A stretch of 64,000 bases of DNA from Dimorphilus gyrociliatus. Taxonomy: Eukaryota > Animalia > Annelida. The position numbers and the translations under genes are program-made. Positions within the stretch are counted from its first letter, which is position 1; every line of letters starts with the position of its first letter. This document shows positions 8,763 to 47,359 of the stretch, piece by piece. The stretch covers positions 600,942 to 664,941 of the forward strand of contig CAJFCJ010000009.1 in the NCBI GenBank assembly GCA_904063045.1. The letters run 5' to 3'. The notes under the pieces were generated by a model that saw only the letters and a list, made by a program, of their open reading frames with translations, was not told the DNA's origin and made no database searches.

Positions 8763-11700
8763 TTATGAAACGTTAGATTCTTGCCTTTCATCGACAACTG
8801 TTGAATTGGTTTTGACTGACAAATAATCATTTTCTACATCTTCTTCCGTAGCATCTCCTTGCAAAGCCAAAAACTTTTTGGCGACTAATTTCCAATCTAC
8901 AACTTGTTCGATTCGTGGGGGACCATGAGTGCCCTTTGTTCCGCCCGCAGCTAAAAAGCCACCCCCGCCTTCAGGCGCAACCTGAGTGTTACGTCTCATC
9001 GCCCATCCCCCACTATGTACCATTTCAAGACTTCTGGCGTCGCTTCCGCCATCGACATCCTCTTCTTCGTCAATAAACTGTTGCGCTGAAGAGGAACAGA
9101 CTTTACTTCTATGCTTGCATAGCACTCTAAGATATGTGTATAGTTTTGTGAAGAGGTTTAAAGGAGACGGCGTTGCACTCGTCTTATTCATATTTCGGAA
9201 GAGTTTTGCCCTACCAAATTTCCATTCAGTATCTGATTGAGCTTGGATTCTTTGATATGTATCCGACATCATAGCGATAAGTAAATTAATTAGAACGATA
9301 ATAGTGACAATCTGGTATATACCAAATACAGCTTTGGCTAACGTAATTGTCCATATTGGATTTCTATGGACGGGTGGAAGATTTTCTGGTTCAACAAGAC
9401 CAAATAAAGCAAAAAATAAAAGCTCAAAAGTTTTAAAAACATTATCAGTAGATGCTCCTCCTGCTCCAGTTCCATCACCTAATTGGGCGTTGGTGGCTGG
9501 TTCTGCCGTAACCGGTTGATAGATGGCACTCATGAGTAGGGTAAAGCCCATCATAAATATAAGTAATATTACAAGAAATCTTGTCAAATCTTTCATCAAA
9601 TCTCGAATAATGATGGCCCAAGGACCGAATAAATGATGGAATGATAGAAAATCTAGGAGTTGAGCGAAACACAAAAGCAGAGAGAAGCCAAAGAATTGAT
9701 TGCGTGCGTAAATACATTGCAGTCGTTGATCGCCGGAAAAGGCGGCTCCCAGAATATGTACCGCAACGCCTATCGAGCAAATACCGATAATTAATACGCG
9801 AATCCAACCTAAGCCAGCCCTATCGCCTGGATTAGTAAGTTCCGAAACGAGTAAACCCGATAGCCAAGCTAAAAGTAGCCATTCATGCCAGTTCGGTATT
9901 AGGGAACCCGATTTCCAGATTGGAACCAAAGGATTTACAGCAACCAAATAGAAAAGTATAATCAAATAGAAATGGGATACAAGATAACTCATAAACTTGA
10001 TAACCGGTATCTTATTCAAGCTATGTTTAATGGGTAATGAGAAGACAAGCCAAACAGGAGGAAGCATAAGGAGGCTGGCAAAAAGTAAAAGCATTTTCCA
10101 GCTGGACCATTCGCTTAATTTACCCATCCAAACTTCCGTCAGATGTTTCTGAACAGCAGCGTGCGACATAACTTCTTTTTGTTCACATTCAATGAGAACA
10201 TCTAAAAAAGGCATGCCCCTTTCATCAACGGCCTTTAAAATCAATCCGGCTGACGACACACTGGCTGCTATGGCGTTCAATTCGGTTGCCATAGCTTCGC
10301 AAAAATCACCGACAGCTAATAAATCTTTCGCTCTCTCTTTTTCCTTTGTCGCCAGAACACGGAAGTTTCTCGATAATTTGACGGCAGTATCGACAGGTGC
10401 CTGGGAAACTAGAACGAATTCTTGTATCGACTTATTGTCGTTAAGCTTGCCCACAACCATGAGATCGAAAACAAATTTGTTGTCGTCCATCAAAGTACTT
10501 GTGTTGTGTTCTTTTTTTAATAAGTAGCTGAGAACTTCGGCATGGTTCATTGATGCCGCATAACAAAGAGCTACTTTTCCATCTTTGGTTTCGTATGTCG
10601 GGCCGGCTCCAGCTTCAATTAAAAGTTTAACAACGTCTATATGACCTGCCTTCGAGCAAAAATGTAGGGCCGTCCAACCGTTCTTATCATACGAATTAAT
10701 ATCTGCTCCTTGACCCAGTAAAAGTGAAACCATATCAATATGCCCATTAGCTGCCGCAAGATGGAGTCCCGTCCTACCCTTTTTATCCTTTACATGCAAT
10801 TGGCTTGTAGACTTACTTAATAAAAGAGAAACAACTGCTGTATGACCAGACTGAGCGGCTAGATGAAGGGCCAATGATCCATGAAGATTTGTTGGTACGT
10901 CTGCAACGACTCCTGGTGAATTAAGAAGGAGTCTGACAAGACCTTCATGACCAGACTGAGCCGCTAAATGCAACGGAGTAAAACCAGATTCATTTTGTAT
11001 CGTTTCCGTATCAACTGATTCACTTCGTAGCGTTGCCGGAACTTTATTTAACATTTCGCGGACAAAGTCTATTTGACCGTAATGGGCAGCGACATGCAAT
11101 GCAGTTAAACCGGATTTTGTACTCGATACCTATCAAATAAATACACTTTACAGCAGATTTCAATTTAATTTAAACGCTCTCTTCTTACTTTGACAGACAT
11201 TTTTTTTTTTAGTTCATCTAGAACTTGAGTGTGTCCGTGTTTTGCAGCAAGATGAATTGCTGTCATTCCCTCCTTTAGAAAAAAAAAGTATTGGAAAAAT
11301 TATTTTTAGCAAATATCCCTCATTTTTTTCTTTATATTTTAACTCTCAAACGTACGCTATTCTCATCCACAGGGGAGGCACCCGCATCAATTAATGTTCT
11401 TACAACAGCCGAATGTCCACCAGCAGCCGCCAGATGGAGTGTTGTAGAATCACTTGTCTGTTTTTTTAAAAAAAAAAAGAAATGAGTAAGAGAAGAGATT
11501 ATGTAACGGATGAATGAAAAATTCAATAGAGAAAATATTTACCCTATTTCTGGCTGTTGTTACAACGATCTTGTTAAATCTCATCAATTCCCTTATAACT
11601 GCGACACTCCCTTTAGATGCGGCAATATGAGCGCAAGTCATACCATTCTGAAATCAATTTTTTTTTCAGTATTAGAAATCAATTTACATTAATAGAATCC

Positions 11701-14700
11701 CTCTTTCTTCCTTTCTTTTTATATACAGACTATAATAGCCTTACCTCGTCCTGAAATTCAAAACAAAAATGGGAAAAATTATTAGTAATGCCTTTGTTTT
11801 GCTTAGTCAATTACTTACAGTATTAGCCATTCCTACCAACTCTGGTCGATGTTTTAGAAACAATTTAACTACATTTGAATGGTCATTTTCTGCTGCCAAG
11901 TGTAATGGAGTTTGTCCGTGCTAATTAAAAATAATTTAAAACTAATTATTAGATTTTTAATGTTAATCTTACCGCATCTGTAGCACTAGCGTCACTTTTC
12001 ATCTTTAATAAAGTATTACAAACTTCCATTTGACCATTTTGAGCAGCCATATGTAATGGAGTTTGTTTCGCCTATAATAATAAGTAATAAAGTCACTTTT
12101 ACCTTTTTAAGCTTTTAAAACGAGGCCTCTCAAAAAACAAAACTCTTTCATAACTCTTACCAAACTTAGAGCATCGATACTAGCCGAATGATTTTCAATA
12201 AGTAGTTTAACAAGAGCATTGTAACCGTTTTGCGCTGCCAAATGCAAAGGTGTTACACCCAATTTTGATTTTGCGTTAACGAATGCCTTATGTTGGAGTA
12301 GAAGATCGGCAACTTTAGCATGACCATGCTCGGCTGATAAATGCAACGCTGCTTTCCCGTGCTGATAGAGTGAATAACAGTTGGATAGATAGTCTTTTGA
12401 TAAAAGTTATATATTATCTTACTTCGTCAAATACGTCAACTCTTGCATGATTCTTTAATAGAATTTTTAATATTTCTAAATGCCCGTTTTCGCTTGCTAC
12501 TAGCAGAGGTGACCAACCATTCTATTTTGATAAAATTCATACATATTCATTAATGAACTCGGTCGTTTATAAAATCTATATTAGCTGTTTTACCTTGGCT
12601 TGTTTATTCACTGCTACTTGAACCTTTCCCGGTCCAATGTGTTTAACTATTTCCAGCAGTACGTCATCATTTCCCGCTCTAGCACAATAGTGCAAAGGCG
12701 TCTCTTGAGTCTAAAACATATATTTATTTGACTTTCTGTTTCTAATAATAGAAATATAAAAACCAATTTTGTATGTATATTTGTATCTCCATCGTATTCA
12801 AGCAGAGTTTTAATAAGATCAATATCCTCGAATTCACGATGAAGTTTCTCTTTCTTAATTTCAGCTGCATAGTGAACTGCTGTTTCTCCTTCCTTTATTA
12901 AATTATTCATAGATATAGTATTGAAAAAAATAACTAAGTGTAAAATTAATTGATAATTTGCATGAGTAACATTTCAGACTTCAATATAAAAAACAATGAT
13001 TTAAATTGTTTTGTACTCACCGCATTTTGAGTGTTTGTCAACACGACTGCATCGAATCGACTTTTTTCTTTTTCAATAAATTTGAGTAGGGCATTAGCCA
13101 CAGGCCAGCAGCAATAGCGAACAGAAATATGAAGGGGTGTTTCACCTGCCTTTGATTGCCATGTTGGATCCGCTCCTTCGGCTAGCAGAGCTTTGCACAT
13201 ATTTAGTTGACCGTAGCGAGCAGATATGTGTAATGCCGTCTCACCATTCTGTAAGAAGAGAAACTCTTTGTTTAATATATTTGTAGACGGTTCTAAATTG
13301 TCGTTCTACCTCTTGAGTGGCATTGACATCAGCTCCGCTTTTTAGCAGTAATTCGGCGCATCTTTCACCCCCTTGAACTCTTGAAGCAATATGTAGTGGT
13401 GTTTCCTTTATTTTACCTCCCTTTATTTCTACTGGTGCTCCCATACCTAATAACGTTTGAACAACTAAAGGTTTGCAGTGCTCTACAGCAACGTGTAAGG
13501 CTGTGTATTTATCTTTTGTAGTCGCATCTACTGACGCTCCCTTAGTTAATAAGGCCTTAATTACAGAGTTATGGCCTCTCATGGCTGCTGCATGTAAGCA
13601 AAGTGCTCCACCCTTATTAGGCATGTGCAAAGGCACACCTTTCCTTAGAAATGTCATTGCCGTATCTGGATGTCCAAACTGAGAAGCAACATGCATTAAA
13701 GTTGAGCCATCCTTCGTTCGAGCGTTAATATCAGCTCTATACTTATCGATAAGTATATCGACAATAGTTGTATGACCTTTCTCAGCAGCAAGATGAAGTG
13801 GTGTTCTATCGAACTGATCCGTTAAATTAGGATTTGGTTTATATTGGACAAGGTATTTGACAACGGTTTCGTCGCCTTCCCAGCTTGATATATGCAAAGG
13901 TGTATGGCCGTCAGTCTATGTTTCACGATAGATATTAATTAAAATGAAATAAATAAGCATGTAAATAAAAAGCTTACATTTTGCGCGTCTAATTGAGCTC
14001 CATTTTCGACAAACGCCTTGACCATATCGGACTCTTTTTTTCTGCATGCTACGTGTAATATTGTGTCACCGGTATCTCTCTTTCTTGATGATAATTGCTC
14101 TTCTGGGAAACTTAAGAGTAATTCCCTACAAACCGATACATTACCCGCTTCTGCGGCTAACATCATTGGCAAGCAACCATCCTATATAAATAGACCTAAA
14201 TTATAAATGCGTTCGAAGCTATTTATTAAAAGTTTCTTTACTTTATCCTCAATCAACCTGGATTCCTTGGCGGCGTTCTTCAATAGAAGTTGAACTATGG
14301 CGACGACGCCAATAGATCTTGAACAAGCCATATGTAAAGGTAGTTGTTCTTTGGCCTATTGTGTTTGCAGATGCATTAAACTTTATCGAACTATTTCCCT
14401 TTTTTTTTTTTCATTTTTTACACAAATAAGAATGAATGAAAATCAAAAAAAACTGTTCAATAGTTTACGTACACCATCACGAGAATTTGCATCAGCTTTA
14501 CGATTTAGTAATGCTCTAACCATATCATCCTTGCAGTAGGAAGCAGCAAAATGGAGAGCCGTTTTAGCGTCCTATTCATAGTGAGAGGGAAAGAGAGGTT
14601 TAAAATCGATCATTAATCAATAAATTGAAAATAAAAAAAAAGTCGAGAAAGGTAGAAAAGAAGAACGATCGTTTCGCTAAAAGCGTCGAGCCCACCGATT

Positions 14701-16363
14701 TCTATTGTACCTCAGTCGTATAAAAAAAAATACTGCTATAATTATATCGCATATGACGGACTGCAAAGCGTTTGTTTGGTAGGTAAACGCAATTATTCAA
14801 CGCTTTCGAATCAATCGAATATTTACCGAGTCGAAACAATCGGCTAGTTAATTCTTTTTAACGGTCTTGTTTAAAATCAATAGAAATCTGACAAACCTTT
14901 TCGCGTTTGTTAACGTCGGCACCCAGTTCCATCAGCCTCTCTGCTATTACAATTTTGTTCTCCTTAACTGCCATCATTAAGGCAGTTGAATTAGATACCT
15001 GAGGGAAAAACACAACTGTTTATGAGATCATAATAAAAGAGTAAAATGAGAGAAATTGATTGATTTTCTATCAGTTTCATTTTATTTAGTCGGTTTGCAA
15101 ATTGTTTACCGGATCTTGAGCATCAATATCCTGTAGCGGATTCTGGGCTACTGTTCGAAGATATTGGTCTAATTCACTCCAAGCTCCTTTCATTGCGAGT
15201 TCAAGCACCATTGGTAGCTTTTCCTCTTGTTTTTCCTCGCTTTCCTTCTTTTCAGCCGTTTTAATTTCATTCTGCTTTTCATCCTTTTCCTTTGATTTCT
15301 TCTCATCTTTTGGTTTTTTTTCATCTTTTTTCTTCTTATCATCCTTCTTTTCAGGCAATTTTGGTGTCGAAGCTGATCTTGTGTTAGAAGGAGGAGGTGT
15401 TGCTCTCTGTTTCTGTTCCTCAATTAGTTTTTTAGCTGGTCTAGGAGATGATTTTTGCAGCTCTTTATTTTCTTCCTTAGGAGATTCCTTTAAATTTGCA
15501 GGAGGTATAGAACCATTTGATCGTTTCTCGATAGTATTACTCTTAGTTTGTTCAACTTTCTGTTCTTGTTTCTGACTAGTTTGCTGTTGTGGTGTTTTTT
15601 CCGATTCAACTTTTTTCGTTTTATCAGGTTTGTCAGTTTTTTCAGTTTTATCACTTTTATCACTTTTATCACTTTTATCAGTTTTGTCAGTTTTTTCTTG
15701 TTTTTCTTGTTTTTCAGCCTTTTCAACCTTTTCAGCCTTTTCAGCCTTTTCAGCCTTTTCAGCCTTTTCAGCCTTTTCCGCTTTCTCTGTCTTTTCCTTG
15801 TTTTCTGTTTTATCCGTCTTAGGTTCACTTATTGTTTCGTTAGTGTTTTTAGGCTCGGATTCAGTTTTATTTTTTGACTCTGTTGCATTAGGATCGTCAT
15901 TATGAGGTTTATCCTTTGGTGGGATGGATGGAGTTTTGGTACCGTCTTTTTTAGCATCGTTTTTCGCTGGTTCAGAGTTGAGTTTTCTACTTGTTTCTAC
16001 CTTTTTCTTGACAGTAGGTGTAGTGTCTACTTTTTCGGACTTATTTTGAGAAGTTGACGGTTGAACTTTACTTTTATCGCCTTCTTCTTTCTTCCTTTCA
16101 GCTTTATCCACATTATCCACTTCTCCTTTGTTTTTTGAGTCATCTTCAACTTTTTTTGGCGCATTAGCCTTTGCTTCATTACTTCCTTCTACTTTAACGT
16201 CTTTTGCCTTATCAGTTTCACTCTTAGCCTTAATAGCGGACTTCACCGGTCTCTTTGGCGATTCATTCTTTGGTTTTGTTGTAGCTGAGGGATTTCGTCT
16301 CTCACGACTCGAGGATCTACCACGGGCCGCACTTGCCAACCTCGCTCTAGCGCTGCTCATCAT
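8763..16363 (-). CDS. nompC: TRPN/NOMPC mechanosensitive channel, about 2003 aa. Exons 16363-15110, 14998-14897, 14571-14473, 14355-14242, 14181-13978, 13915-13310, 13248-13021, 12892-12764, 12710-12594, 12521-12423, 12361-12161, 12071-11973, 11920-11819, 11647-11543, 11457-11356, 11272-11189, 11129-8763
   Basis: Long ankyrin array followed by TRPN-specific segments (KEKERAKDL, FLDVLIECEQKEV, LDFLSFHHLFGPWAIII, VLINLLIAMMSDTYQRIQAQSDTEWKFGRAKL). All 16 introns are GT-AG and phase 0. Confidence 0.95.
15625..15790 (-). repeat. Coding 9-bp-period tandem repeat encoding (A/V/Q/T/S/P)-(E/D)-K tripeptides in the TRPN N-terminus
   Basis: Plus strand reads (ttttcagcc)n, (tttttcttg)n and (acttttatc)n; translation EKAEKAEKAEKAEKAEKVEKAEKQEKQEKTDKTDKSDKSDKSDKTEKTDKPDK. 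Confidence 0.9.
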
Positions 16364-17221: not shown

Positions 17222-17712
17222 TTCTATTTTATTTTTACTTTTGATTGAACAGTTCTCTCTCTCTCTTTCTTTCTTCCGTTCTTTCTTCTTTATTCTAGTT
17301 TAAAGTAGGCAAGTAAAAGGGAAATTACTTGATACAGATTTTTCGCTGTTTCATTATTTCGACAAGTACTATTTATAATAGAATTTTTCGTGTAGTATAT
17401 ATTAACTTAAACTTACGTCGCTTACAGCTCCGATTAAATTCCTCCCAAGAAGCTAATTGACAGATGATATTCAATTACTTGTATTATATGAGATTGCAAA
17501 CACATAGCATTGATTATTTCATGTACAAAAGAAAAAATTCTCCTTTTCTATCTGTCTATATTACCGTCGGTCTATCTGTTATTCATTTATAAAGGGTTAA
17601 GAGGAAGTATATATATTTAATTATACCATATATATATATATATATAGTATATTATATATTAATAAATTAGTCCTATGGTCACATTTAAAGTTTAAAAAAG
17701 AATTATTTAAAA

Positions 17713-19956
17713 ATGGAAAGAATTTATACAATGTGGCTAGTTCTGATATCTATATTTGTCAATTATTCATACACCACACAATTTTGCTGCTTTCAGGCGA
17801 CCAATTCAAGCTTTATCGATAAGTCAAATATATGTTTTTCGTGTGAAAGAAACGTTAACGCATCAGAAAGCAAAGAAGTTTGCAGACGGAAAGACATGGC
17901 TAGATTTGAATTTCTCAATTATTTACCAGAATATATTCCTTTATCTGATTATTCTCATTTAAAAGTACTAGAGGAAAATACTAAAATCAGTTTGGGATTT
18001 AAAAATAGTACTAGTCTCCTATCGACTAGTGTTTTTTGGGTTGGATTGAATGCTATTTTGAGGGAAAATAGAACAATTTTTCAAATGGACTCGTCCACAT
18101 GGAAAAATTCTGTTAGCTTGGAATTTAAAGATCAGCAATTCAATTCTGAAAAGTGCCTCGTTATCGATATACAAACCGAAGTATTAAGTAATTATAACTG
18201 TTCTGAAAAAGTAGATGTTTTATGTTATAGGCCTCAATATGGATTCTGGGGCAAGTGGGAAATGATCAACCTTTGTTCTGAAGAAGGGTACCGTCCAAAC
18301 GAATTGACTTCGGAAGAATATAGTAACGAATAGACAAACTTAAGATTAAATAAGACTAATAAGTTTTCCTTGTTGAATGATCTGTCTGCTTTTTGTAGAC
18401 AATCCGTTTGACGGTATTCTTGGAGGATAGTACTTAAGAAAAGAAGCTGCGATAGTCCGCCCAGTTGTCACTATCATAATCATTGTGGGGGTCCAGCAAG
18501 AACGGAAGTTATCCGAGAAATGTGTAGTGTGGTCGAACAACCGTCTAATGTTTTTATTGCAAAGAAGGAGACGTCAGTGACTGTAAAGAATCTAGCTACC
18601 AGTTATAACGAATGTAAACAAAGAAACAAGCTCGATACTTCCTTTACTATCAAACAAGAAATTAATGGCTTATCATTGAATTTTACATTTGAAGGTGAGG
18701 ATGATAGCCAAATTTGTCCTGACAGGGAGAGATTTTATCTCTCAACTAAGAATGCCGTTTCGTTGGATGATTGCATGAAAAAATGCGCCGAATTCACTCT
18801 ATGCATTCGCTTCTCTTTCTTCCAATACTATCTGGAATGTAAGTTAAAAGCATCAAGACGATGTTGGAGAAATGAACCATGTGCCTTTAATTATATAAAA
18901 CGGCCTAATTTTTGTTTTGATTTAATAAAGGAAGGCGTAAAAGAAATTACGTCGGAAGTCTATTTCGATAATGAAGGAGGCTATTGCTATACTCACCTAC
19001 ATAGAATGAACTTTCAAAGCGCAAAGATGGCGTGTCGGTCGATCGGAATGCATGTTCTAAAGCTTTGGATTCAACAAGATGTTGATACTGGAAATTCGTT
19101 TTTTGTAAGATTAAGAAAATTAAAATTTCGTAACGTTTGGTTAGGTTTACATAGAGCATCTTCAGCCGATACATTCATTTGGCAAAGCGACCTCTGGAAA
19201 GATTTCGACGCCATACCGTCTACGCACAGCAAAATAGTTGAAACAGGCTTGGGAGAGGGTGCGTGTTTTACTGCCTCACTTGATAGCGACTCAACTATTG
19301 ACTGGGTTAATAGAGATTGTTTCAAAAATGTGGCTCATGTTATATGTTTTAGGCCTATTATGGGAGAATGGGGTCCCTGGGTTGCTTGGAGACCTTGCTC
19401 TACTTGTAAAGAAAGGCGTATGGAGAGGCATAGAGATTGTAATATGCCAGAACCTATAATTGGATCGTGTTTAGGCGAGAAATTCGATTACAAGAGTATA
19501 AATGTAGAATCTGAACCGTTGCCGCCTTATTATTATCATATATATGTTGGTTGCATTTGTGGCACATTAGTTCTCTTATTTGCATATGTACTAAAGAAGA
19601 TTCAGTCTTCGTTCTATGGCCGATTCGTAGAGCAACTTCATAACTATGAGAGGGAAGCAGAGAGGGACTATTTCACATTGAAGAATCGTTTAGCAGATTA
19701 TGTGAGTGACGTTTGCGAGACCTCACCCATTCGTACTTCGAAAAGTGTAAAACGTCAAAAAAGCTACACATACACGTACATTACTGAAACAGATTCAGAC
19801 CCATTAAAAGAATTTAATCAAGCGGAAGAAGACGGAAATAGTGATAAAATCATGATCGAAAAATTGGAAGAGGCGGAAGAGGAAGAAGACGATGAGAAAT
19901 TAGATTATAAAAATATTACAGTTGCAGTTGATATAGAAAATCACGATGAGAGATAG
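17713..19956 (+). CDS. Single-pass receptor: signal peptide, C-type lectin, TSP1, PAN/apple, C-type lectin, TSP1, TM helix, acidic Tyr-containing tail. ORF interrupted at 18289-18416 by a small inserted element
   Basis: Two same-frame ORFs (17713-18333 and 18520-19956). CTL motifs FWVGLN and VWLGLH with C-terminal C..C pairs; TSP1 starts WGKW and WGPWVAWRPC; PAN-like SLDDCMKKCAEFTLCIRFSF; TM segment IYVGCICGTLVLLFAYVL. The frame is restored either by deleting the insert or by a 138-nt intron (18288-18425). Confidence 0.75.
18291..18414. mobile_element. 124-bp MITE-like element with imperfect terminal inverted repeats and TA target-site duplication (Tc1/mariner-pogo style)
   Basis: Left end TA|CCGTCCAAACGAATTGAC; right end (reverse complement) TA|CCGTC-AAACGGATTGTC, i.e. 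about 19 bp with one gap and two mismatches. Deleting the element plus one TA gives the uninterrupted reading GAA GAA GGG TAT TCT TGG AGG ATA GTA. Confidence 0.65.
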
Positions 19957-23618: not shown

Positions 23619-25977
23619 ATGATGGAAAAGTATTTTAACGTTGATGAAGTATTGGGGGATTCCAATAATTGCCCTGAATATACGCCAAAGTTGTACACAC
23701 TTCTCAATTTACTATCAACATATAAGGAGGAAAATTATATAGAAATTCAACCCATTCTGGCTTACTTTTCGGAGAAAGAAGTAAACATTTTCAAGTTCTT
23801 ATTCTAGAAACCTACTTATATTTTTTATCATTTCAGATAAATACGCCTCTACCGAATGGTCATACTTTTGTAGGGATATTAGTTACTATACCGGATGAAA
23901 GACCTCTAAAAATAGCTCTTGAAAGAGGAGGTGATCCTAATCAAATGCCTGCAAATGAAAATGACGTCTTACCACTACTGAAAGCAATTTCTTTGAATCA
24001 TATAAATCACATTGAGCTTCTTTTAGCTTACGGTGCTAACTACAGTATTATTCCAAATTGTCTTGATAATATTCTTAATATAGCTGTTACAAAAAATCAA
24101 GTACAGCTTTTTCGAAAACTAGCTACAAATGCTACAGCTGAAGTTCTTCAGCGTCAACTATCTACTGCAATTATTAACCGTTCAATTGAAATAATTCATC
24201 TCCTTGTAAGACTTGAAGCTGACTTGAATCAAGTTGATGATGGACTATCACCTCTCGTAATCGCTGCATCTAAAGGAGATGAAGATCTTTGTAAAATGTT
24301 AATTCATTTAGGCGCAAAATTGAATAGGGATTCAGGATCTCAGCAAGATGCACCGTTAATTTTGGCTGTTAAAAGTAGTAGCTATACAGCGGTTAAAACT
24401 CTACTAAAATTAGGTGCTGAATATAATGTGACGGAGGGTACAACTCAAGTGTCCTGCGGACCCTTTCATTATCATACTGTACCGGTCGGTAATTCTTCAC
24501 TTCATTTGGCTGTTTTACAAAATAATGAAATAATAGCCAAAATGTTGGTTGAAGCTGGATCAAATTTGAATCAAAGAAATTATGAAGGTGATACACCTTT
24601 ACATTTAGCTTGTAAAGATAGAGAGAAAGGATATGAAATGGTGAAACTTCTAATTAAACTTCACGCTGAAAGACACGCTAGAACAGCAGCTGCTGGAGGA
24701 GATAAAGCAATGAGAGGAGGTCATGAAGAAACATGTCACTGCGACAATTGTAATCGTTATCGCTTAACTAGGCAATGTTTACAATTAAATGCTAAAAACT
24801 GCTTAGAGTGTACACCTCTTATGGAGGCCATACAGTCTAAAAATGTAGCCGTTGTTGATCTCCTATTATGTGATGGGGCTGATCCGTGTGTACGTTGCGA
24901 GGCCGTAACAATGACAACGACAGCCTTGCATCTTGCCGTGAAAGTACAAAGTATAGAAGTGTGTCAGAAACTGTTGAAAGGTTTATCAAATTAAATTTTT
25001 TTTTGACGCGACAATAATTCTCTTATCTATTTAGCTGGCTGTTCCGTCGACTCTTACGATAAGGATGGTTTTACAAGCCTACATCTTGCTGCTTCGAAAG
25101 GTGACTTGGAGATCGTTAAGTTACTAATACGAGTTGGTGCCAATTTAACAAATTTGACAATAAAAGATGAGAATCTTTTACATTTGGCCGTTGGATCCAA
25201 ATCGAAAGAACTTATTCACTACATACTGGAGCATAATCTCATCGACATTTCTGCACAGAATGCTTTTCAATGGTCACCTTTGATGCTTGCAGCTAGGATT
25301 GATACACCGTGGCCTACTGCTTTACTTGTAAAATATGGTGCACCATTGAACGCTCGAGATATGAATGGGGAAACAGCTTTACTTCACGCTGTTTATTTTG
25401 GAAGCGAGCATAACGCATCAATATTAATTGCACATGGCGCTGATATGAATATTGGTGACAGAGGAGGTTGTACACCCCTCTATTGGTGTATTTTCAATGG
25501 TCGAATACGTACACTTCAGCTATTACTGTTAGCTGGAGCAAGTTTAACGATGAATGAATTTTTAAGATATCCATGTAACGTTTCTACAATGCGTGATGAA
25601 AGGTTGAAAAAGTGGGTAGAACGGCACTTAACTTGTCCCTCCCGTTTAGAAAATCTTGCCCGTTTGAGTATTAGGAAAAAAATTTCATGTTATTCTCAAG
25701 GGAAAGATATCGCTCCACTAATCAATAAACTACCATTACCATCTCCCTTAAAAAGGTATGCTATTATGATCATATCTACCTTAATTATTCTACCGAGTGT
25801 TTATACTTAAATATAGCGTTTATTTAGAAATAATATAAATATATAGAGAGCAATGATTTATCGTAGATTTATTTCCCTTGCAGGTTTCTCCTTTTCTACG
25901 TAGATTATAATAATACAATTGAGAGTAATCTGTGTGTCAAAGAAGAATTTGATGAGGAAATGGATTTCCTTTGGTAA
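23619..25977 (+). CDS. Ankyrin repeat and SOCS-box protein (ASB-like), about 706 aa. Exons 23619-23780, 23837-24980, 25035-25755, 25884-25977
   Basis: Many ankyrin repeats (GLSPLVIAA, GDTPLHLAC, GETALLHAV) and a C-terminal SOCS box PSRLENLARLSIRK...LPLPSPLKRFLLF, completed by the last exon. Phases are consistent. Confidence 0.85.
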
Positions 25978-40902: not shown

Positions 40903-41590
40903 ATGAGCAGAAGAGCAAGTTTATTATTAAAAGAAGAGCAAGAGCAGCCAGAAGGTTCGAGTAAAAATAAGACAGCGAGAGTTCGTTTTCCGGATGAGTT
41001 GGTTTTTCTGGATAATATAAAAGAAAATGATGTTCAAGCCATGGATAGGATGTTACGAAGGGCTAGTTTAAAAATGGATATTAATAGTATGTCTAGCTCA
41101 GGTAAGCAATAGTGGAAAAACTAAAAAGTATACCTAAACATTTATTATAACTTTTTATTATCAGGAATGACGGCTTTACACCAGGCGGTCGTCGATGGAA
41201 ATTTTCAGGCTGTTAGGCTTCTAATCAGACACGGAGCTGATGTTAATAAAACCGATGAAGGTTGGATGGGTTTTCCTTTTCATGGCTAAATAAATCCTTG
41301 TTTTTCTAGCATTATGCATGTGAAATAATCTTGTTATTATAGATACATGGACACCCCTGCACGCAGCCTGTGCAAATGGACACGTCGACATTGCCAGGTT
41401 TCTTCTAGATCTTAATCAATTATATATATATATATATATATATATATTACTAATGAATCTTCTCCTCTGTCCATCCAGATTTCTTATTCAAAAAGGAGCC
41501 GATAAAAACATTAAGAACGAAGATGGTGAGAGACCAATCGATTTAGTAGATTCATCGGATTTTGCCATGATTAAAGTCGTATTAGAGTGA
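40903..41590 (+). CDS. PPP1R27: PPP1R27-like small ankyrin-repeat PP1 regulatory subunit, 153 aa. Exons 40903-41101, 41165-41260, 41343-41397, 41479-41590
   Basis: RVRF (RVxF) motif followed by PDELVFLDNIKEND, GMTALHQAVVDGN, TWTPLHAACANGHVDIARFLIQKGAD and DGERPIDLVD. Size and layout match PPP1R27; a truncated MYPT-family relative is the alternative. Confidence 0.75.
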
Positions 41591-44500
41591 ATCCAACATA
41601 AAAAACTTAATAGTCCTTCCTGAAATAAAAACTGATTGTTAGTAATATAATTAAAAAAAAAAACTCAATTATATTACAGAATCTTTCCTCATTATAATAT
41701 TAATTATTAAAATTTCTCTGTTATAATGCTAGGCACTAGGAAGTTTGTTGTAAAGTCAAATAAGGACTAGTTTAAAGAAAATAATAAATAAAAAAAAAAA
41801 TAAAAAATCAATATTTTTATAAATTCATCAATTTTCTCTAGGCCTAATTCCTTAAAAAATTTACCGACTAATTATAGTAGAAAAAGTCTAACGAAAATTT
41901 ATGATCAAAGAAGAGAGAGACATGCAATGTTTAAAAAGGATATTTATCATCTTTTATACTCAATTTTCAATTGTCAATTATTAGTAAGAAATAAAGTAAA
42001 AATGGACTAGAGCGCTAGATAACTAATTATATTTCCTCTTTCTTTTCATTTGTCTGTTCTATTCACGCAATAAATAAGATGTAATAGAAAACAATGATTA
42101 ATAAAAAAATGAAAGAAAGAAAGGTAGAGGAAGTATAAAAAAGGAAACATAAGAAGAAGAAGTAGCAGAAGAAGAAAAGAGAGAAAAAATCTATGATAAA
42201 GAAAAGATAAAAGAGAAAAAAAGAGAAAAAAAAAATAAAATTTTACAAATATATATCAAGCAATTAAATAAAAAGAAAACGAATTGAAAAGAGGGATAGT
42301 ACTCGGGGTTTTGAGTTATGGCTTTTCATAAAATTTTAGTCGACGTTGCACAGACTTGTCAAAAAATATTTCATTTGACGTATAATAAAAAAAGAATAGT
42401 TTATTAATGTGAATATTTTCATTTTTTTATATTTTTTTTATTATACACTTTTTACATTTTAAAAGACAAACAAAACAAACAAAACAATTGTGGTAATAAA
42501 TTTATTTTATAAAAGTTTAACAAATGTTTTATCTTAAGTTAACTAGTTGCCAATGTTTTGCGTGTTGTGTTTTTTCCCCTCCTCTATGTTTCTTACTCAT
42601 TTAAACGATGTGACTACTTAATTAAAAAGCTACCTCTGGAGAATGTAAAGCGTTTAGCTTGTATCTTTCTTATATCTTGAGAAATTAAAAGTTTTTGATT
42701 TTAGTGATTCAATATCAATACTCGATAGATGGCGTATGAAATATGAATAGTCTTATCAAAAAAATTAGACAGTAGTTCGATAATTAGATTGTTAAAGGAC
42801 AGAGGAATATAGTTTATTGAAAAATAAAATTAATTAAGAAGTAATTAATTAACTATTACCTAAAATAAAATATACTGGTGTAAGGTATTCATAGTATAAA
42901 ACCGGTATAGTATATCTTATGAATTCGAAGAAAAATTCACAGTAGAATACTATACTATTATCATATTTAACGTTGATAAAAGAGATATAAGCTTTTATAG
43001 ATTTATTATTTCGTCATCTAACAAGCAGTTTAAAACTTCATTAACGTGACAAAAGGAGTATCCAAATGGGAAATTAAAGCGGTAACAATATTCAATGGAA
43101 ATCACCTACCTATAACTAATTTACAATACAGCCACTCGACCAATAATGATTAATGATTCTACGAGAGATAAAAGGTTAAATACTTCAAATTACTTATTGT
43201 TTAATAAAGAAGAAGACCCAAAGTCATGTACATTTCTAATAGATAATATAAATTCTATAATTGGTATAAAAGAAACAATACGGAAAATAAATAGAACAAT
43301 CTAGCTATTTTTTCTTTTACAATTGGGGAAACGTTTTCAATCGATAAAGACTTTTTTCATCCAAATATACATAAAAAGTCACCTCCAGCTGTAGCATAGG
43401 GAATATAATTAATTCGGGTGATTTATTGCAAAATTGATGTTTAGATTGTAAAGAATTTATTCATTCTTCAACTTTAAAGGCTATTTCTTCAATAAAAAAA
43501 ATAACGACAACAAAACAACACGATAAACATAGAAACACTCTTGTTAGTTGTCAAGTGAAAACTTTATTTTATCTAAGCGATTAATTGTAAAAATGTTCAG
43601 AGATTAATAGATTAGAATAAATCTTTAATACCGTAGTTAAAACATTATAACAAGCTTTGTTGGAAACTTTAAGTTAAAGAGGAAAATGATAACGGTTTTG
43701 TTAATAATAATAACAATACAAAGGAAAAGCATCAACGTAAATTAAATTCAGACAAAAGAAAATACCCGAGAGTTGTCTAACGGAGAAAACAACCCTATTT
43801 GACCGAGTTTGGGTAGAGATGTTTAGTCGTTAGAGGAGAATTTATTTTACAGCACACGCTTCATCCATTATATTTAGACGGGGGGAAAAAAGCATTAAGA
43901 CGAAGACGTCCGTTAAAGATAAATTTTCATATTTTCCTTCTTATAACCTCTATTAAAAGGGAAAATATTTATGATGAAAATAGTTATTTTTAGATTTTTA
44001 ACTGTTCCATAACAAATGAAAGAGTTGCAGTTATAATTGTTTTTGTTTAAAAAAAAAAACCGTCTATTTTTTCTTTGAAATTGTCATTGAATTTACTAAA
44101 TTTGCTTAGGTATCATTATGCAATTGTTTCAAAATCATTGAATTAAAATTCCATTAAATATGTAAAAATTATAAAAAAGGTGATATAAATTAAATTAAGA
44201 GTATATGATACTCTTACTAATTTGCTAGTAAAGAAACGTAATTGACTCACTAGGGTTCAAGTATAAATATATAGAGCCGCCTTTATCAAGCAGTTTTGCG
44301 GAAAGGAGCAAAGATGTAAGTATACGAGAATGACATTTACTCTTTTCCCTTTTAAAGTTTTATCCGATTAGATAAGCTCTATAATAATATTGTTCCTCTT
44401 AGGTAATTCAATATATTGAATATTAATTAAAGTAGTAATTTTCATTATCCTTTAGTTTTTTAGTCATTAAAATAAGAAGTTGTTTAAAGTAATATGTCAT

Positions 44501-44813
44501 TTCTATCTTTTTACATGTATATTGTATATAATAGACAATTACTCTATAGATAACGGTCAAAGGTCATTTAGTCTCTGAGAATATTTCCCTTATTGATTGT
44601 ATTCTATAATACTTTTTATAATAAAGTAGGGCGTGCTGTTTTTTTTATTAAAAACTGATTGATAGATTATGAGAATAGATTCCCTTTACGCTTTTATTAT
44701 ATTTACATAATAATTTAATCTTTGCATTTTTGCTTTCTTTCTTCTTCATTTCATTTTTCAAAATAATACTGAAAAAATGAAGAACAGTCCAAAAAGAAAG
44801 GAAACTATACAAA

Positions 44814-45327
44814 ATGGAGAAAATCTTCGTTTGCTTGTTAATGTTCAGTACCATTGCTTTAGCTTATACAAGGATGGATTTATTGTAAGAAATTACAATT
44901 TAATATTGAATTTATACACTAGTGAATTGTTATCTTTTATCTTTTTATAGCTCGGATGAAGAACCTTCGTTCAATCCTTTGTAAGTGATTGAGTATTTAT
45001 TAATAAACTTTTTAAGTTGAACCATTTTTCTCTTTTGAACTTTTTTTTAGCATATCTGAGGAATTTGATGATAACTCTAATCTTATCAAAAGAGGTATCT
45101 TTCTTAAAAACTAGGGTATGGATTAATGACGATTATTAATAACTTTTTAAGGACGAATCATGAGAGGGCCTCACAAGGGTAAGGAGTTCTGCGGAAGAAT
45201 TCAAAGAAAGCCAATTTTTTGTGGTACGGGTAGATTCTGCTGCGCTAAAGGGGTATGCTGTAAACAAGGACAAGTTTGTAGGTTTATGCAGGAGTTTCAC
45301 GTGTATCATTGTATAAACGGTTTGTGA
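44814..45327 (+). CDS. Secreted prepropeptide, 106 aa, with a cationic 8-Cys mature peptide. Exons 44814-44884, 44951-44980, 45051-45094, 45152-45327
   Basis: Four exons with GT-AG sites and consistent phases (2, 2, 1) give MEKIFVCLLMFSTIALA-YTRMDLFSDEEPSFNPFISEEFDDNSNLIKR-GRIMRGPHKGKEFCGRIQRKPIFCGTGRFCCAKGVCCKQGQVCRFMQEFHVYHCINGL*. Absent from the ORF track. Confidence 0.8.
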
Positions 45328-46052
45328 ACGTAGAATACGTTAAAAGAAGATTTGATTGCTTGTTCATCATATCAATACAACTTCTAATTACCTTATACAT
45401 TGTATTTATCATTTTTTTATGTATAAATATTCATCTAAACTAAACACATCTTAGGGATAGCTTTTATTTGGAATTAGAATAAAAGATGGCATTAGACCCA
45501 CCTGATGTCGAATTATCTATAGTAGCTGAGTGGAATTGTTGAGTAAAAGGGGACTGGGCCAAAGAAAATTTCATTCTACCCTTCTTTAATAATAAATCCT
45601 AGCTATGATACAGTAATATTATTAGAAAAGATCTGTAGTATTACGCAAGATATTTTTATGAAGAGAATGACTCTTAGACCCACTCATTTCATATTTACGA
45701 AGTCATTAAATTTGTTCCTGTTTTCAAAATAATTCTATGTAATAAAGTGTAGTCAGATATTCCTCTGTACTCTTTCACATGGTGACTCATTCTTTTAATA
45801 GCCCTAGCGATAATTGGAGATTAACGTTCAGTTGAATCATGTGTTACCTTAAGATTTGTTTCTACATTGGATTAAAAATTATAGAATTTAAATTTTTATT
45901 TCTAAAAAATTAGAAATTTTATTATAATTTCATAAATTATAATAAATTTTACTGCAAAATCTTAATTTCTTTTCGAAATAACCGTTTGGCGCCCTTGTCG
46001 CTGTAAAAACGGTTCTAATCTCATTTGAAGCTCAGTGTCCGTGATAGTAAAA

Positions 46053-47359
46053 ATGGCTAGTGGCTGGGTAAGTAAAATACTTAGTTTTTAGTGTCCTAGA
46101 AAGACGTCATCATGTAATTCAGATAGTTATTGATTTTTAAATATTTTTCTCTTTATTTTAAATATTTTGAAGTTTTAGGAAATAGTAAATTTCTTATTTT
46201 TCGAACAAAGTTTACTCGATGATTAATTTTAGGGAACTGGTTCGGGATGGAGCAATCAGGCGCCTATGAATCAAGGTTTGTAGTAAATCACAATACTGAA
46301 TATTTAATAGATCTTGTAATTAATTGAATCTTTAGGCTATCAACAACAACAATACGCATCTGCACCTCCCGTTGGTGGAGGATACCAAAATCCAGGACAA
46401 TACCAGAATAATCCAGGACAATTTCAGAATAATCCGGGACAATTTCAGAATAATACGGGACAGTATCAGAACAACCAAGGTGAAATAATATATACATATT
46501 AGTCTTCATGTTGACAATTATATTTTTATTATATTATATATATATATTGAAAATAAACAGGTTATAATCAGTCGCATAATCAATATCCTGGTGGTCAAGG
46601 TAGAGAGATTAACAAACTATATTCTGGATTTAATTTCAATCATATTTTCAGGAGTCACCCAAAATATTAGAGAATGGTTTACGGCCATTGATCAATCTGG
46701 TAATGGAAGGGTGTCTGCCCTTGAATTACAGGCAGCATTAACAAATAGCGATTGGAGTCGATTCAGTATGGAAACATGTATATTAATGATAAGTTAGTGT
46801 TCTATTACAATGTAAATAATTCTTATAAAATATTTATATCTTTATTAAGTCATTAAATTATTGAATAAAACAAGAATAGTTTAGAAATAAGTTAATCTTG
46901 AAATTTCTATCATTTTAACAGAATTGTTTGATAGGAGTAATGATCAGAAAATTGATATAAATGAATTTCAAGCTTTATGGAATTATATTCAAGAATGGAA
47001 AAGAATATTTGAATCATTTGATAGAGATAGATCAGGTACAATTGATGTTAACGAATTGACTAGTGGTTAGTATGCTATATAAATAGAAAGGCTATAAACA
47101 TTTATAACCAATTTTATTAAACTTTATCACAGCGTTTAATCAAATGGGCTTTCGTCTAAGTCCCAACTTTTCCCAAGTCGTCGTAAAAAGGTACGATACG
47201 ACTGGCAGAGGCTGTATTACATTTGACGCTTTTATTCACGCTTGCGTTCTTGTCAAGAATTCCACCGATTCATTCGCAAAAAAAGATTTACAGAGAAAGG
47301 GAGAAGCAACTTTCAATTTTGAAGAATTCCTTACAATCTACTTGAATACAGTGAAATAA
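46053..47359 (+). CDS. PEF1: Penta-EF-hand protein (peflin/ALG-2 family, peflin-like long N-terminus), about 250 aa. Exons 46053-46067, 46233-46275, 46336-46479, 46561-46599, 46652-46792, 46922-47065, 47133-47359
   Basis: EF hands DQSGNGRVSALEL, DRSNDQKIDINEF, DRDRSGTIDVNEL and DTTGRGCITFDAF; LWNYIQEWKRIFESFD segment; G/Q/N/P/Y-rich N-terminus. The family is secure; peflin versus ALG-2 is less certain. Confidence 0.8.
46392..46475 (+). repeat. Four copies of a coding 21-bp unit (PGQ[Y/F]QNN) in the penta-EF-hand N-terminus
   Basis: ccaggacaataccagaataat / ccaggacaatttcagaataat / ccgggacaatttcagaataat / acgggacagtatcagaacaac. Confidence 0.85.

What the first reader, a model, noticed from the sequence alone, without database searches (positions are those of the whole stretch)
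44814..45327. Hidden four-exon prepropeptide: cationic 8-Cys peptide, candidate new antimicrobial or toxin family
Seen: a 17-aa signal-like segment, an acidic propiece (SDEEPSF...SEEFDD), a dibasic KR site ending just before the last intron, and a 58-aa mature peptide almost entirely on its own exon. The mature peptide has 6 Arg + 5 Lys against 2 Glu (net about +9) and the framework C-x9-C-x5-CC-x4-CC-x5-C-x10-C. Established: signal + anionic propiece + KR + cationic disulfide-rich peptide is the layout of defensins and many venom peptides. The double-CC framework does not match the defensin, macin or knottin spacings I know; it loosely recalls a half granulin. Invisible to the ORF track.
Basis: partly seen in the sequence, partly recalled or inferred. 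Interest (0 to 1): 0.8.

Follow-up and report, generated by a model that had tools for sequence, protein, structure and literature searches.

The report
Orphan eight-cysteine secreted worm peptide
A tiny marine worm has a real, spliced gene for a small protein of no named family that is likely secreted and likely cut to release a positively charged eight-cysteine peptide, which is predicted to fold like a shortened granulin and most likely acts against microbes, though no activity has been tested.

Summary
The gene is real. The window is from the miniature annelid Dimorphilus gyrociliatus. The 106-aa protein is not hidden: it is already annotated, without a function, as DgyrCDS7313. Charge, KR site and cysteine spacing are as described. 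No family claims it (Pfam, PDB). The only homologue found is one unnamed relative, 50 of 58 residues identical with all 8 cysteines kept. AlphaFold2 gives six strands (pLDDT 76), and the top structural rows are granulin fragments, but only at Z 2.1-2.4. The cysteine order is not new: it is conotoxin framework XI. The precursor layout is also not specific to defence, since CCWamide neuropeptides share it. Best reading: a secreted, convertase-released host-defence peptide on a shortened granulin-like ladder (0.4). A signalling ligand is a close rival (0.33); a venom toxin is unlikely (0.07). It is a lineage-restricted orphan peptide with an interesting possible scaffold and no demonstrated activity.

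The parts
42884..43174 (+). Upstream exon (mostly 5' leader); its true start is not defined. Holds five ATGs ahead of the annotated start, one of them in frame (43146)
   Evidence: X1 contig covers 42884-43171 and joins to 44780 with the GT..AG cut at +3; ATGs listed
43175..44782 (+).
44262..44321 (+). TATA-like box followed by a GTAAGT donor at 44316: possible alternative short first exon without upstream ATG; unconfirmed
   Evidence: 1 match, 0.59 expected; 46 of 100 shuffles reach it; no joint seen in X1
44783..44884 (+). Exon 2; annotated ATG at 44814 (A at -3, G at +4); codons 1-17 (44814-44864) encode the predicted signal peptide
44885..44950 (+). Intron 2, 66 nt, phase 2
44951..44980 (+). 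Exon 3, 30 nt, acidic spacer
44981..45050 (+). Intron 3, 70 nt, phase 2
45051..45094 (+). Exon 4, 44 nt: rest of the acidic spacer, the KR site (45088-45093) and the first base of the mature peptide's first codon
45095..45151 (+). Intron 4, 57 nt, phase 1 (inside a Gly codon), AAG acceptor
45152..45327 (+). Coding part of the last exon: predicted mature 58-aa peptide, 8 Cys, net +9; stop at 45325-45327
45328..45395 (+). 3' UTR as far as the contig was laid; the true end is not defined (first AATAAA at 45478)

Best explanation
The gene is spliced into an mRNA for a 106-aa precursor that is likely secreted and likely cut at KR to free a 58-aa, +9 peptide, predicted to fold as a granulin-like stack of three beta-hairpins, which most likely binds and damages anionic microbial surfaces as a host-defence peptide. 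Shown: gene structure, splicing, sequence, charges, one conserved homologue. Inferred: (1) residues 1-17 route it to the secretory pathway; (2) the -7 spacer masks the +9 peptide until a proprotein convertase cuts after KR, as proposed for acidic pro-regions of other antimicrobial precursors (PMC6780910, passage); (3) four disulfides form a ladder I-III, II-V, IV-VII, VI-VIII, i.e. the granulin rule with two CC rungs instead of four; (4) the first 47 residues carry +10 and would make the microbe contact, while the last hairpin is neutral to acidic. Separate odds: real expressed gene 0.98; secreted and cut at KR 0.85; granulin-like stack 0.55 (ICK+1 knottin about 0.2, other 0.25); defence function 0.4.
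For: Splicing and annotation. Charge complement -7 / +9 and charge distribution. All 8 Cys and their spacing kept in the homologue, which is still +7. AlphaFold2 without alignment gives strands 12-17, 20-24, 28-30, 36-38, 41-46, 51-56, mean pLDDT 75.7 for the best of five models, and the same six strands in the full precursor. Of 48,161 chains, 3 reached Z 2: carp granulin-1 fragment (Z 2.4, rmsd 1.6, 30 aligned, model 28-58), zebrafish granulin AaE (Z 2.1, rmsd 4.0, 43 aligned) and a spider toxin (Z 2.1). Of Foldseek's 58 rows, 3 reached Z 2: two granulin fragments and alphaD-conotoxin GeXXA. The Atlas's own model lists granulin clusters in 2 of 10 rows (TM 0.54 and 0.49, under the naming bar). 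Granulin connectivity I-III, II-V, IV-VII is from PMC11035057 and PMC7463432. Narrow taxonomic range fits annelid antimicrobial peptides, whose mature parts differ without homology between species, and a conserved mature part has a precedent in alvinellacin (PMC6780910 section 11).
Against: No activity, tissue or induction data. The layout is shared by CCWamide neuropeptides. One copy only was found, whereas defence peptides are often multi-copy (general knowledge). The mature part is as conserved as a helicase core (50 of 58 identical against a median of 84% for 58-residue windows of DDX24, if the two unnamed records are from the same animal, which is unverified), its first 19 residues are invariant, and two of the eight changes add acidic residues. 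Only 29% of residues are non-Cys hydrophobic, GRAVY -0.27, modest for a membrane-lytic peptide. All structure matches are far below the level that the tool regards as meaningful; the five models range from pLDDT 52 to 76; AlphaFold has predicted granulin connectivity wrongly for a conotoxin (PMC11035057). No excess of kappaB-like or AP-1 sites in the window.
Confidence: 0.4

Rival explanations
1. It is an endogenous signalling ligand (neurohormone, growth factor or pheromone). The convertase frees a disulfide-locked peptide whose invariant flexible N-terminal tail addresses a receptor, and the positive charge binds extracellular matrix.
For: Same precursor plan as CCWamide/agatoxin-like neuropeptides: signal, non-conserved spacer, cleavage site at the last intron, 8-Cys peptide on the last exon (PMC8557429 section 9). 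Single copy, helicase-like conservation, and an invariant N-terminal tail that is disordered in the model. Granulins are growth factors (PMC7463432). A 1.6-kb first intron against a species median of 66 nt (PMC7854359) and a leader with five upstream ATGs suggest regulated expression.
Against: No homologue outside one close relative, while most signalling peptides of this worm are conserved across spiralians (PMC7854359 passage). It fails the CCWamide tests, and the worm has its own CCWamide precursor. The N-terminal motif was not found in the neuropeptide supplement of PMC8557429. Net +9 is high for a hormone.
Confidence: 0.33
2. It is a non-lytic secreted effector: a protease inhibitor, a mucus, adhesive or egg-cocoon component, or a reproductive-gland peptide built on a small disulfide scaffold, possibly detached from a WBP1/STMC6-type or neurophysin-type cysteine module.
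For: The only Pfam row at E up to 10 is WBP-1 (E 0.56 and 1.6, 10-11 bits against a cut-off of 28). By eye, seven of the eight Cys line up with the second half of neurophysins printed. Weak Foldseek rows include hirudin and follistatin domains (E 8-10).
Against: The WBP-1 row disappears for the homologue; there is no transmembrane segment or PPxY motif after the Cys domain; no neurophysin or inhibitor family is hit. An acidic spacer with KR is not needed for most such proteins.
Confidence: 0.18
3. It is a venom-type ion-channel toxin with an ICK+1 knottin fold, like framework XI conotoxins.
For: Identical Cys order to framework XI (PMC7912261). Seven of the nine Atlas feature rows shown for the full precursor other than the granulin-named one are spider-toxin, rotifer or nematode Cys-rich clusters, five or six of them named as spider toxins, all at 0.75-0.82. 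A spider toxin is the third VIA row.
Against: Feature scores under 0.9 are reached by a third of shuffled proteins, and the mature part alone gave no usable feature hit. Loops are 9-5-4-5-10 against 6-5-3-3-6 in GXIA. The model has six strands, not a three-stranded knot. One conserved copy is unlike venom families. Dinophilids are, from recall, microbial-film grazers with no known venom apparatus.
Confidence: 0.07

Closest known systems
Granulin / paragranulin / mini-granulin fold (PF00396; PDB 1QGM, 1G26, 6CKU)
   Same: Order single-single-(double)n-single-single of Cys; two C-x-x-G-x-x-C turns; predicted stack of beta-hairpins; model residues 28-58 overlay the 30-residue granulin fragments at 1.6-1.8 A.
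   Different: 8 Cys and two doublets instead of 12 and four (6 in paragranulin, 10 in human granulin G, PMC7463432); one module behind an acidic spacer and KR, not tandem repeats; no Pfam hit; Z only 2.1-2.4.
Framework XI (I-superfamily) conotoxins, e.g. GXIA
   Same: Cys order C-C-CC-CC-C-C; signal + pro + mature layout; one member is reported as antimycobacterial (PMC7912261 passage).
   Different: Longer loops (9-5-4-5-10 against 6-5-3-3-6); predicted hairpin stack rather than ICK+1; no sequence hit; single conserved gene in a non-venomous (recalled) worm.
CCWamide / agatoxin-like neuropeptides of protostomes
   Same: Short precursor, spacer, basic cleavage site at the last intron, eight-Cys peptide on the last exon.
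   Different: Two CC doublets rather than one; no C-x-C pairs; no amidated aromatic C-terminus; last intron is phase 1 in a Gly codon, not phase 2 in a basic codon; the species has a separate CCWamide.
Annelid antimicrobial peptides (BRICHOS family, macins, perinerin)
   Same: Cationic, disulfide-bonded, secreted precursor; similar net charge (+3 to +6 in the rows of Table 4 seen, +9 here).
   Different: No BRICHOS domain; no helix as in macins; eight Cys with two doublets; less hydrophobic than arenicin-1/2 and nicomicins; no sequence hit.
WBP1/VOPP1/CYYR1 (STMC6) six-cysteine ectodomain
   Same: First six Cys follow C-C-CC-CC (family pattern recalled; the Pei and Grishin 2012 paper was not held); faint Pfam WBP-1 row.
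   Different: Two extra Cys, no transmembrane segment, no PPxY tail, convertase site; far below the Pfam cut-off.

Membership tests
Granulin (PF00396) | 12 Cys with four CC doublets (or 6 in a half module) | tested here: not met
   8 Cys, two doublets; definition from PMC11035057 and PMC7463432
Granulin (PF00396) | Profile match above the Pfam cut-off | tested here: not met
   No Granulin row at E up to 10 for P0001, P0123 or P0122; HMMER filters drop most weak matches
Granulin (PF00396) | Stack of beta-hairpins | tested here: inconclusive
   Six strands predicted; best rows are granulins but at Z 2.1-2.4 and TM 0.49-0.54 under the bar
Granulin (PF00396) | Laddered disulfides I-III, II-V, IV-VII | not testable with these tools
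   Model coordinates are not returned; the ladder is inferred from the aligned ranges; needs chemical mapping or NMR
Granulin (PF00396) | Precursor of tandem modules | tested here: not met
   Single module, stop follows the eighth Cys by four residues
Conotoxin framework XI / I-superfamily | Cys order C-C-CC-CC-C-C | tested here: met
Conotoxin framework XI / I-superfamily | Sequence or signal-peptide match to the I-superfamily | tested here: not met
   No Pfam or PDB sequence hit at E up to 10; no direct comparison with I-superfamily signal peptides was run
Conotoxin framework XI / I-superfamily | ICK+1 fold and connectivity I-IV, II-VI, III-VII, V-VIII | tested here: inconclusive
   Model is a six-strand stack; one spider toxin row at Z 2.1; AlphaFold can confuse the two connectivities
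CCWamide / agatoxin-like peptide | Signal, spacer, basic site, eight-Cys peptide on the last exon | tested here: met
CCWamide / agatoxin-like peptide | Aromatic residue between Cys6 and Cys7 in a one-doublet framework; amidated aromatic C-terminus | tested here: not met
   Two doublets, five residues without aromatic between Cys6 and Cys7, no amidation signal
CCWamide / agatoxin-like peptide | Last intron in phase 2 inside a basic codon | tested here: not met
   Phase 1 inside a Gly codon
BRICHOS antimicrobial peptides | About 100-aa BRICHOS domain in the pro-region | tested here: not met
   Pro-region is 31 aa; no Pfam hit
Macins / CS-alpha-beta defensins | Helix packed on a beta-sheet; family profile match | tested here: inconclusive
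   No helix of four or more residues in the mature model and no Pfam row, but the model has no alignment behind it
Antimicrobial peptide (functional class) | Kills or restrains microbes; expressed at barriers or induced | not testable with these tools
   No assay or tissue data; stage RNA-seq tables could not be mapped to this gene
WBP1/STMC6 adaptors | Single transmembrane segment and PPxY tail after the six-Cys domain (recalled) | tested here: not met
   Protein ends 21 residues after Cys6; no hydrophobic segment there
Neurophysin-containing precursors | Two-domain neurophysin behind a hormone peptide | tested here: not met
   8 Cys only, no Cys-bearing nonapeptide, no Pfam row; the likeness to the second half is by eye

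The most novel reading that the evidence does not exclude
It is a natural, stand-alone eight-cysteine granulin: a three-hairpin disulfide ladder that fills the missing rung between the 6-Cys paragranulin and the 10- and 12-Cys granulins, released from an acidic pro-piece and used as an antimicrobial peptide. Because it has the same cysteine order as framework XI knottins, it would show one framework giving two different folds, and would found a new annelid defence-peptide scaffold.
Probability: 0.2. Interest if true: 0.62.

Novelty: new variant of a known kind. Interest (0 to 1): 0.4.

Why it matters
Annelid antimicrobial peptides are known from few families, and the review consulted (PMC6780910) does not contain the word granulin. 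A confirmed eight-cysteine granulin ladder would be a compact, synthesisable 6.6-kDa test case for the open question of what decides between the granulin and knottin folds for one cysteine framework (PMC11035057). If instead it is a signalling ligand, it adds a lineage-specific peptide to a model for nervous-system miniaturisation. The importance is limited by its narrow range (one species and one unnamed relative) and by the lack of any activity data; orphan cysteine-rich secreted peptides are common in invertebrate genomes.

Tried and rejected
Homologue searches: phmmer against 1.84 billion representatives gave 1 hit, the protein's own cluster; word-based searches gave 1 of 1 candidate at near length and none at longer length; that cluster has 2 members. 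The whole genome was not held, so unannotated or distant paralogues are not excluded; tblastn of the window found no second copy. JGI metagenomes: exact degenerate pattern 0 matches; 1 of 191 candidate stretches passed tblastn (L001) and is a chance 16-residue match inside an unrelated 230-aa frame. Pfam: nothing at E 0.1, only WBP-1 at E 0.56-1.6. PDB by sequence: 0. Foldseek: 0 of 58 rows at E 0.001. Neurophysin and framework XI structures were not listed by the fold searches, which does not exclude them. No RNA holder was listed as such by the run search. My enumeration of splice models printed nothing because it allowed only CAG/TAG acceptors; the AAG acceptor is shown by the contig. Mapping the gene to the published ATAC peaks and stage expression tables failed: transcript numbers in the supplement do not follow the CDS numbers (at most 2 of 9 peaks fit at any offset), and that file is cut at 4 million characters. 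Promoter motifs are at chance: AP-1 4 found against 6.05 expected, kappaB-like 30 against 44, TATA-plus-donor 1 against 0.59. A short amidated peptide cut from the N-terminal tail at a single Lys was considered and set aside as unsupported. Print searches: species plus antimicrobial peptide gave 3 papers (2 listed), neither on this gene; the accession numbers gave 0; sequence motifs and ids gave 0 in the genome paper's five supplements; none of the 20 listed of 113 papers held 'granulin-like'. Earlier scan findings: none.

Full report
Observation. One public run holds the stretch (X1, kind not on record). A single 717-nt contig of that run, depth 195, skips all three introns at the predicted places, with no letter differences listed, and also skips a 1608-nt intron (43175-44782) to an upstream exon that begins at or before 42884. 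Five introns of the next gene are skipped in the same run, so the contigs are most likely from RNA; this is one run and may be part of the data behind the annotation. The mature candidate is 58 aa, net +9, Cys at 14, 24, 30, 31, 36, 37, 43, 54; the spacer is net -7 without KR. The signal peptide rests on hydropathy, an A-x-A site and a predicted helix, not on SignalP.

Source and annotation. The window is animal (ankyrin ion channel, C-type lectin, thrombospondin repeat, SOCS box). Its DDX24 helicase is 100% identical to a Dimorphilus gyrociliatus protein, a meiobenthic annelid with a 73.8-Mb genome and median intron of 66 nt (PMC7854359, passages). The peptide precursor is in NCBI and UniRef as DgyrCDS7313 / CAD5118625.1, with no function in its name, and is identical to the model. 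So it is invisible to an ORF track but not to public annotation.

The 5' end. The observed leader holds five ATGs: three short upstream frames, one out-of-frame frame that overlaps the start, and one in-frame ATG at 43146 that would add 20 polar and basic residues ahead of the signal. The annotated ATG has the better context. A TATA-like box at 44262 and a donor at 44316 could make a short alternative first exon, but the motif is at chance level and X1 shows no such joint.

Relatives. HMMER over 1,835,955,588 representatives returned 1 protein (P0122, unnamed Logan record); the word-based searches returned the same one at near length and none at longer length; the cluster has 2 members, P0122 and the annotated protein. 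P0122 covers the last exon only; its first six residues look like intron read-through, which suggests the same intron position. It is identical at 50 of 58 positions, keeps all 8 Cys and the spacing, is invariant over the first 19 residues, and is net +7. An unnamed DDX24 (P0003) is 459 of 606 identical to the worm's, with a median of 84% in 58-residue windows; if both records are from the same animal, which I did not establish, the peptide is as constrained as a helicase core. No paralogue was seen in the window or in the protein collections; the whole genome was not held. Metagenome scans gave nothing real.

Family and fold. Pfam gives nothing at E 0.1 and only a faint WBP-1 row beyond; PDB by sequence gives 0. 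AlphaFold2 on the single sequence gives six strands in three pairs, best model pLDDT 75.7 (five models 52-76), with residues 1-9 disordered; the full precursor repeats this, with a helix at 3-20 and a disordered spacer. Foldseek has 0 of 58 rows at E 0.001. VIA-align lists 3 of 48,161 chains at Z 2 or more: two granulins and one spider toxin; on Foldseek's rows 3 of 58: two granulin fragments (rmsd 1.6-1.8 over 30 residues, model 28-58) and alphaD-conotoxin GeXXA. The Atlas's separate, poorer model (pLDDT 0.55) lists granulin clusters in 2 of 10 rows for the mature part and 1 of 10 for the whole protein, all under its naming bar, below bacterial and fungal clusters without a family. These scores are low by the tools' own scale; small disulfide peptides cannot score high, so they are a consistent lead, not proof. 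The sequence fits a simple rule: granulins are C, C, four CC, C, C with bonds I-III, II-V, IV-VII, VI-IX and so on (PMC11035057 parts 1-3 of 6; PMC7463432 part 1 of 5 and passages); with two CC the ladder closes as I-III, II-V, IV-VII, VI-VIII. Both C-x5-C turns here have Gly in the third place, as I recall for granulins. However, the same order is conotoxin framework XI, which folds as an ICK+1 knot (PMC7912261, passages), and AlphaFold has wrongly given granulin connectivity to a conotoxin. I put the stack at 0.55.

Function. It is also the plan of CCWamide/agatoxin-like neuropeptides, down to the cleavage site at the last intron (PMC8557429, passages and section 9; supplement passages). This gene is not a CCWamide: framework, C-terminus and intron phase differ, and the worm has its own. 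Oysters also have unassigned eight-Cys secreted peptides whose role is left open between neural and antimicrobial (PMC8398477, passages). For defence: the -7/+9 charge complement, +10 on the first 47 residues, narrow range, and the precedent of a conserved mature peptide in alvinellacin (PMC6780910, passages and section 11). For signalling: single copy, strong conservation, an invariant flexible tail, acidic changes tolerated, modest hydrophobicity, a long first intron. Against venom: one conserved copy, Atlas feature scores of 0.75-0.82 that shuffled proteins often reach, and no venom system known to me in this group (recalled). Immune-type promoter motifs are not enriched. Published stage expression tables exist, but I could not map the gene to them (the file is cut), so supplements that I could not fully see may bear on function. 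I commit to defence at 0.4, signalling 0.33, other secreted effector 0.18, toxin 0.07.

Novelty and verdict. I found no paper on this gene. It fails a defining test for every family considered, so it is filed under none; it works like, at best, a granulin-type disulfide scaffold in a standard prepropeptide. That is a new variant of a known kind. The boldest reading not excluded is a natural eight-cysteine granulin ladder serving as an antimicrobial peptide (0.2). Interest 0.4: a real, clean and easily testable orphan peptide, but narrow in range, already annotated, and without any shown activity.

Noticed in passing
window 42884-44813: The observed leader has five upstream ATGs, one in frame (43146) that would add 20 residues before the signal peptide; a possible second first exon ends at 44315.
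   Followed up: partly
window 45603-45683, - strand: A low-depth (3.1) contig skips an intron on the opposite strand (CT..AC on +), i.e. a spliced antisense transcript between this gene's 3' end and the next gene's start.
   Followed up: no
window 46052-47340, + strand: Peflin-like penta-EF-hand gene with a Gly/Gln/Asn/Tyr-rich N-terminus (name by eye; EF-hand rows); five introns are skipped by an X1 contig, which has a run of T as a loose end before 46024.
   Followed up: partly
window 44782 and 45151: Two of the gene's four introns end in AAG rather than CAG/TAG, both confirmed by the contig.
   Followed up: partly
window 40905-41590, + strand: Small multi-exon ankyrin-repeat gene with an RVxF-like motif near its start; by eye like a PP1 regulatory subunit (recalled, not searched).
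   Followed up: no
window 8763-13915, - strand: Long ankyrin arrays followed by an ion-transport domain: a TRPA-like channel gene with very large exons.
   Followed up: no
window 17689-19956, + strand: Frames with weak C-type lectin, thrombospondin-1 and PAN rows, all under the Pfam cut-offs: a probable secreted or surface protein.
   Followed up: no
window 23726-25810, + strand: Ankyrin repeats ending in a SOCS box (ASB-like).
   Followed up: no
window 15086-16363, - strand: A 425-codon stop-free frame with no Pfam row, in a region of strong AT skew with several overlapping open frames.
   Followed up: no
P0003 and P0122 (unnamed Logan records): A DDX24 at 76-77% identity and the peptide homologue point to a sequenced close relative of this worm, well above the 44-51% of all other DDX24 rows.
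   Followed up: partly
L001 2845-3537: Unrelated 230-aa frame in a metagenome contig that matched a short peptide pattern by chance.
   Followed up: yes
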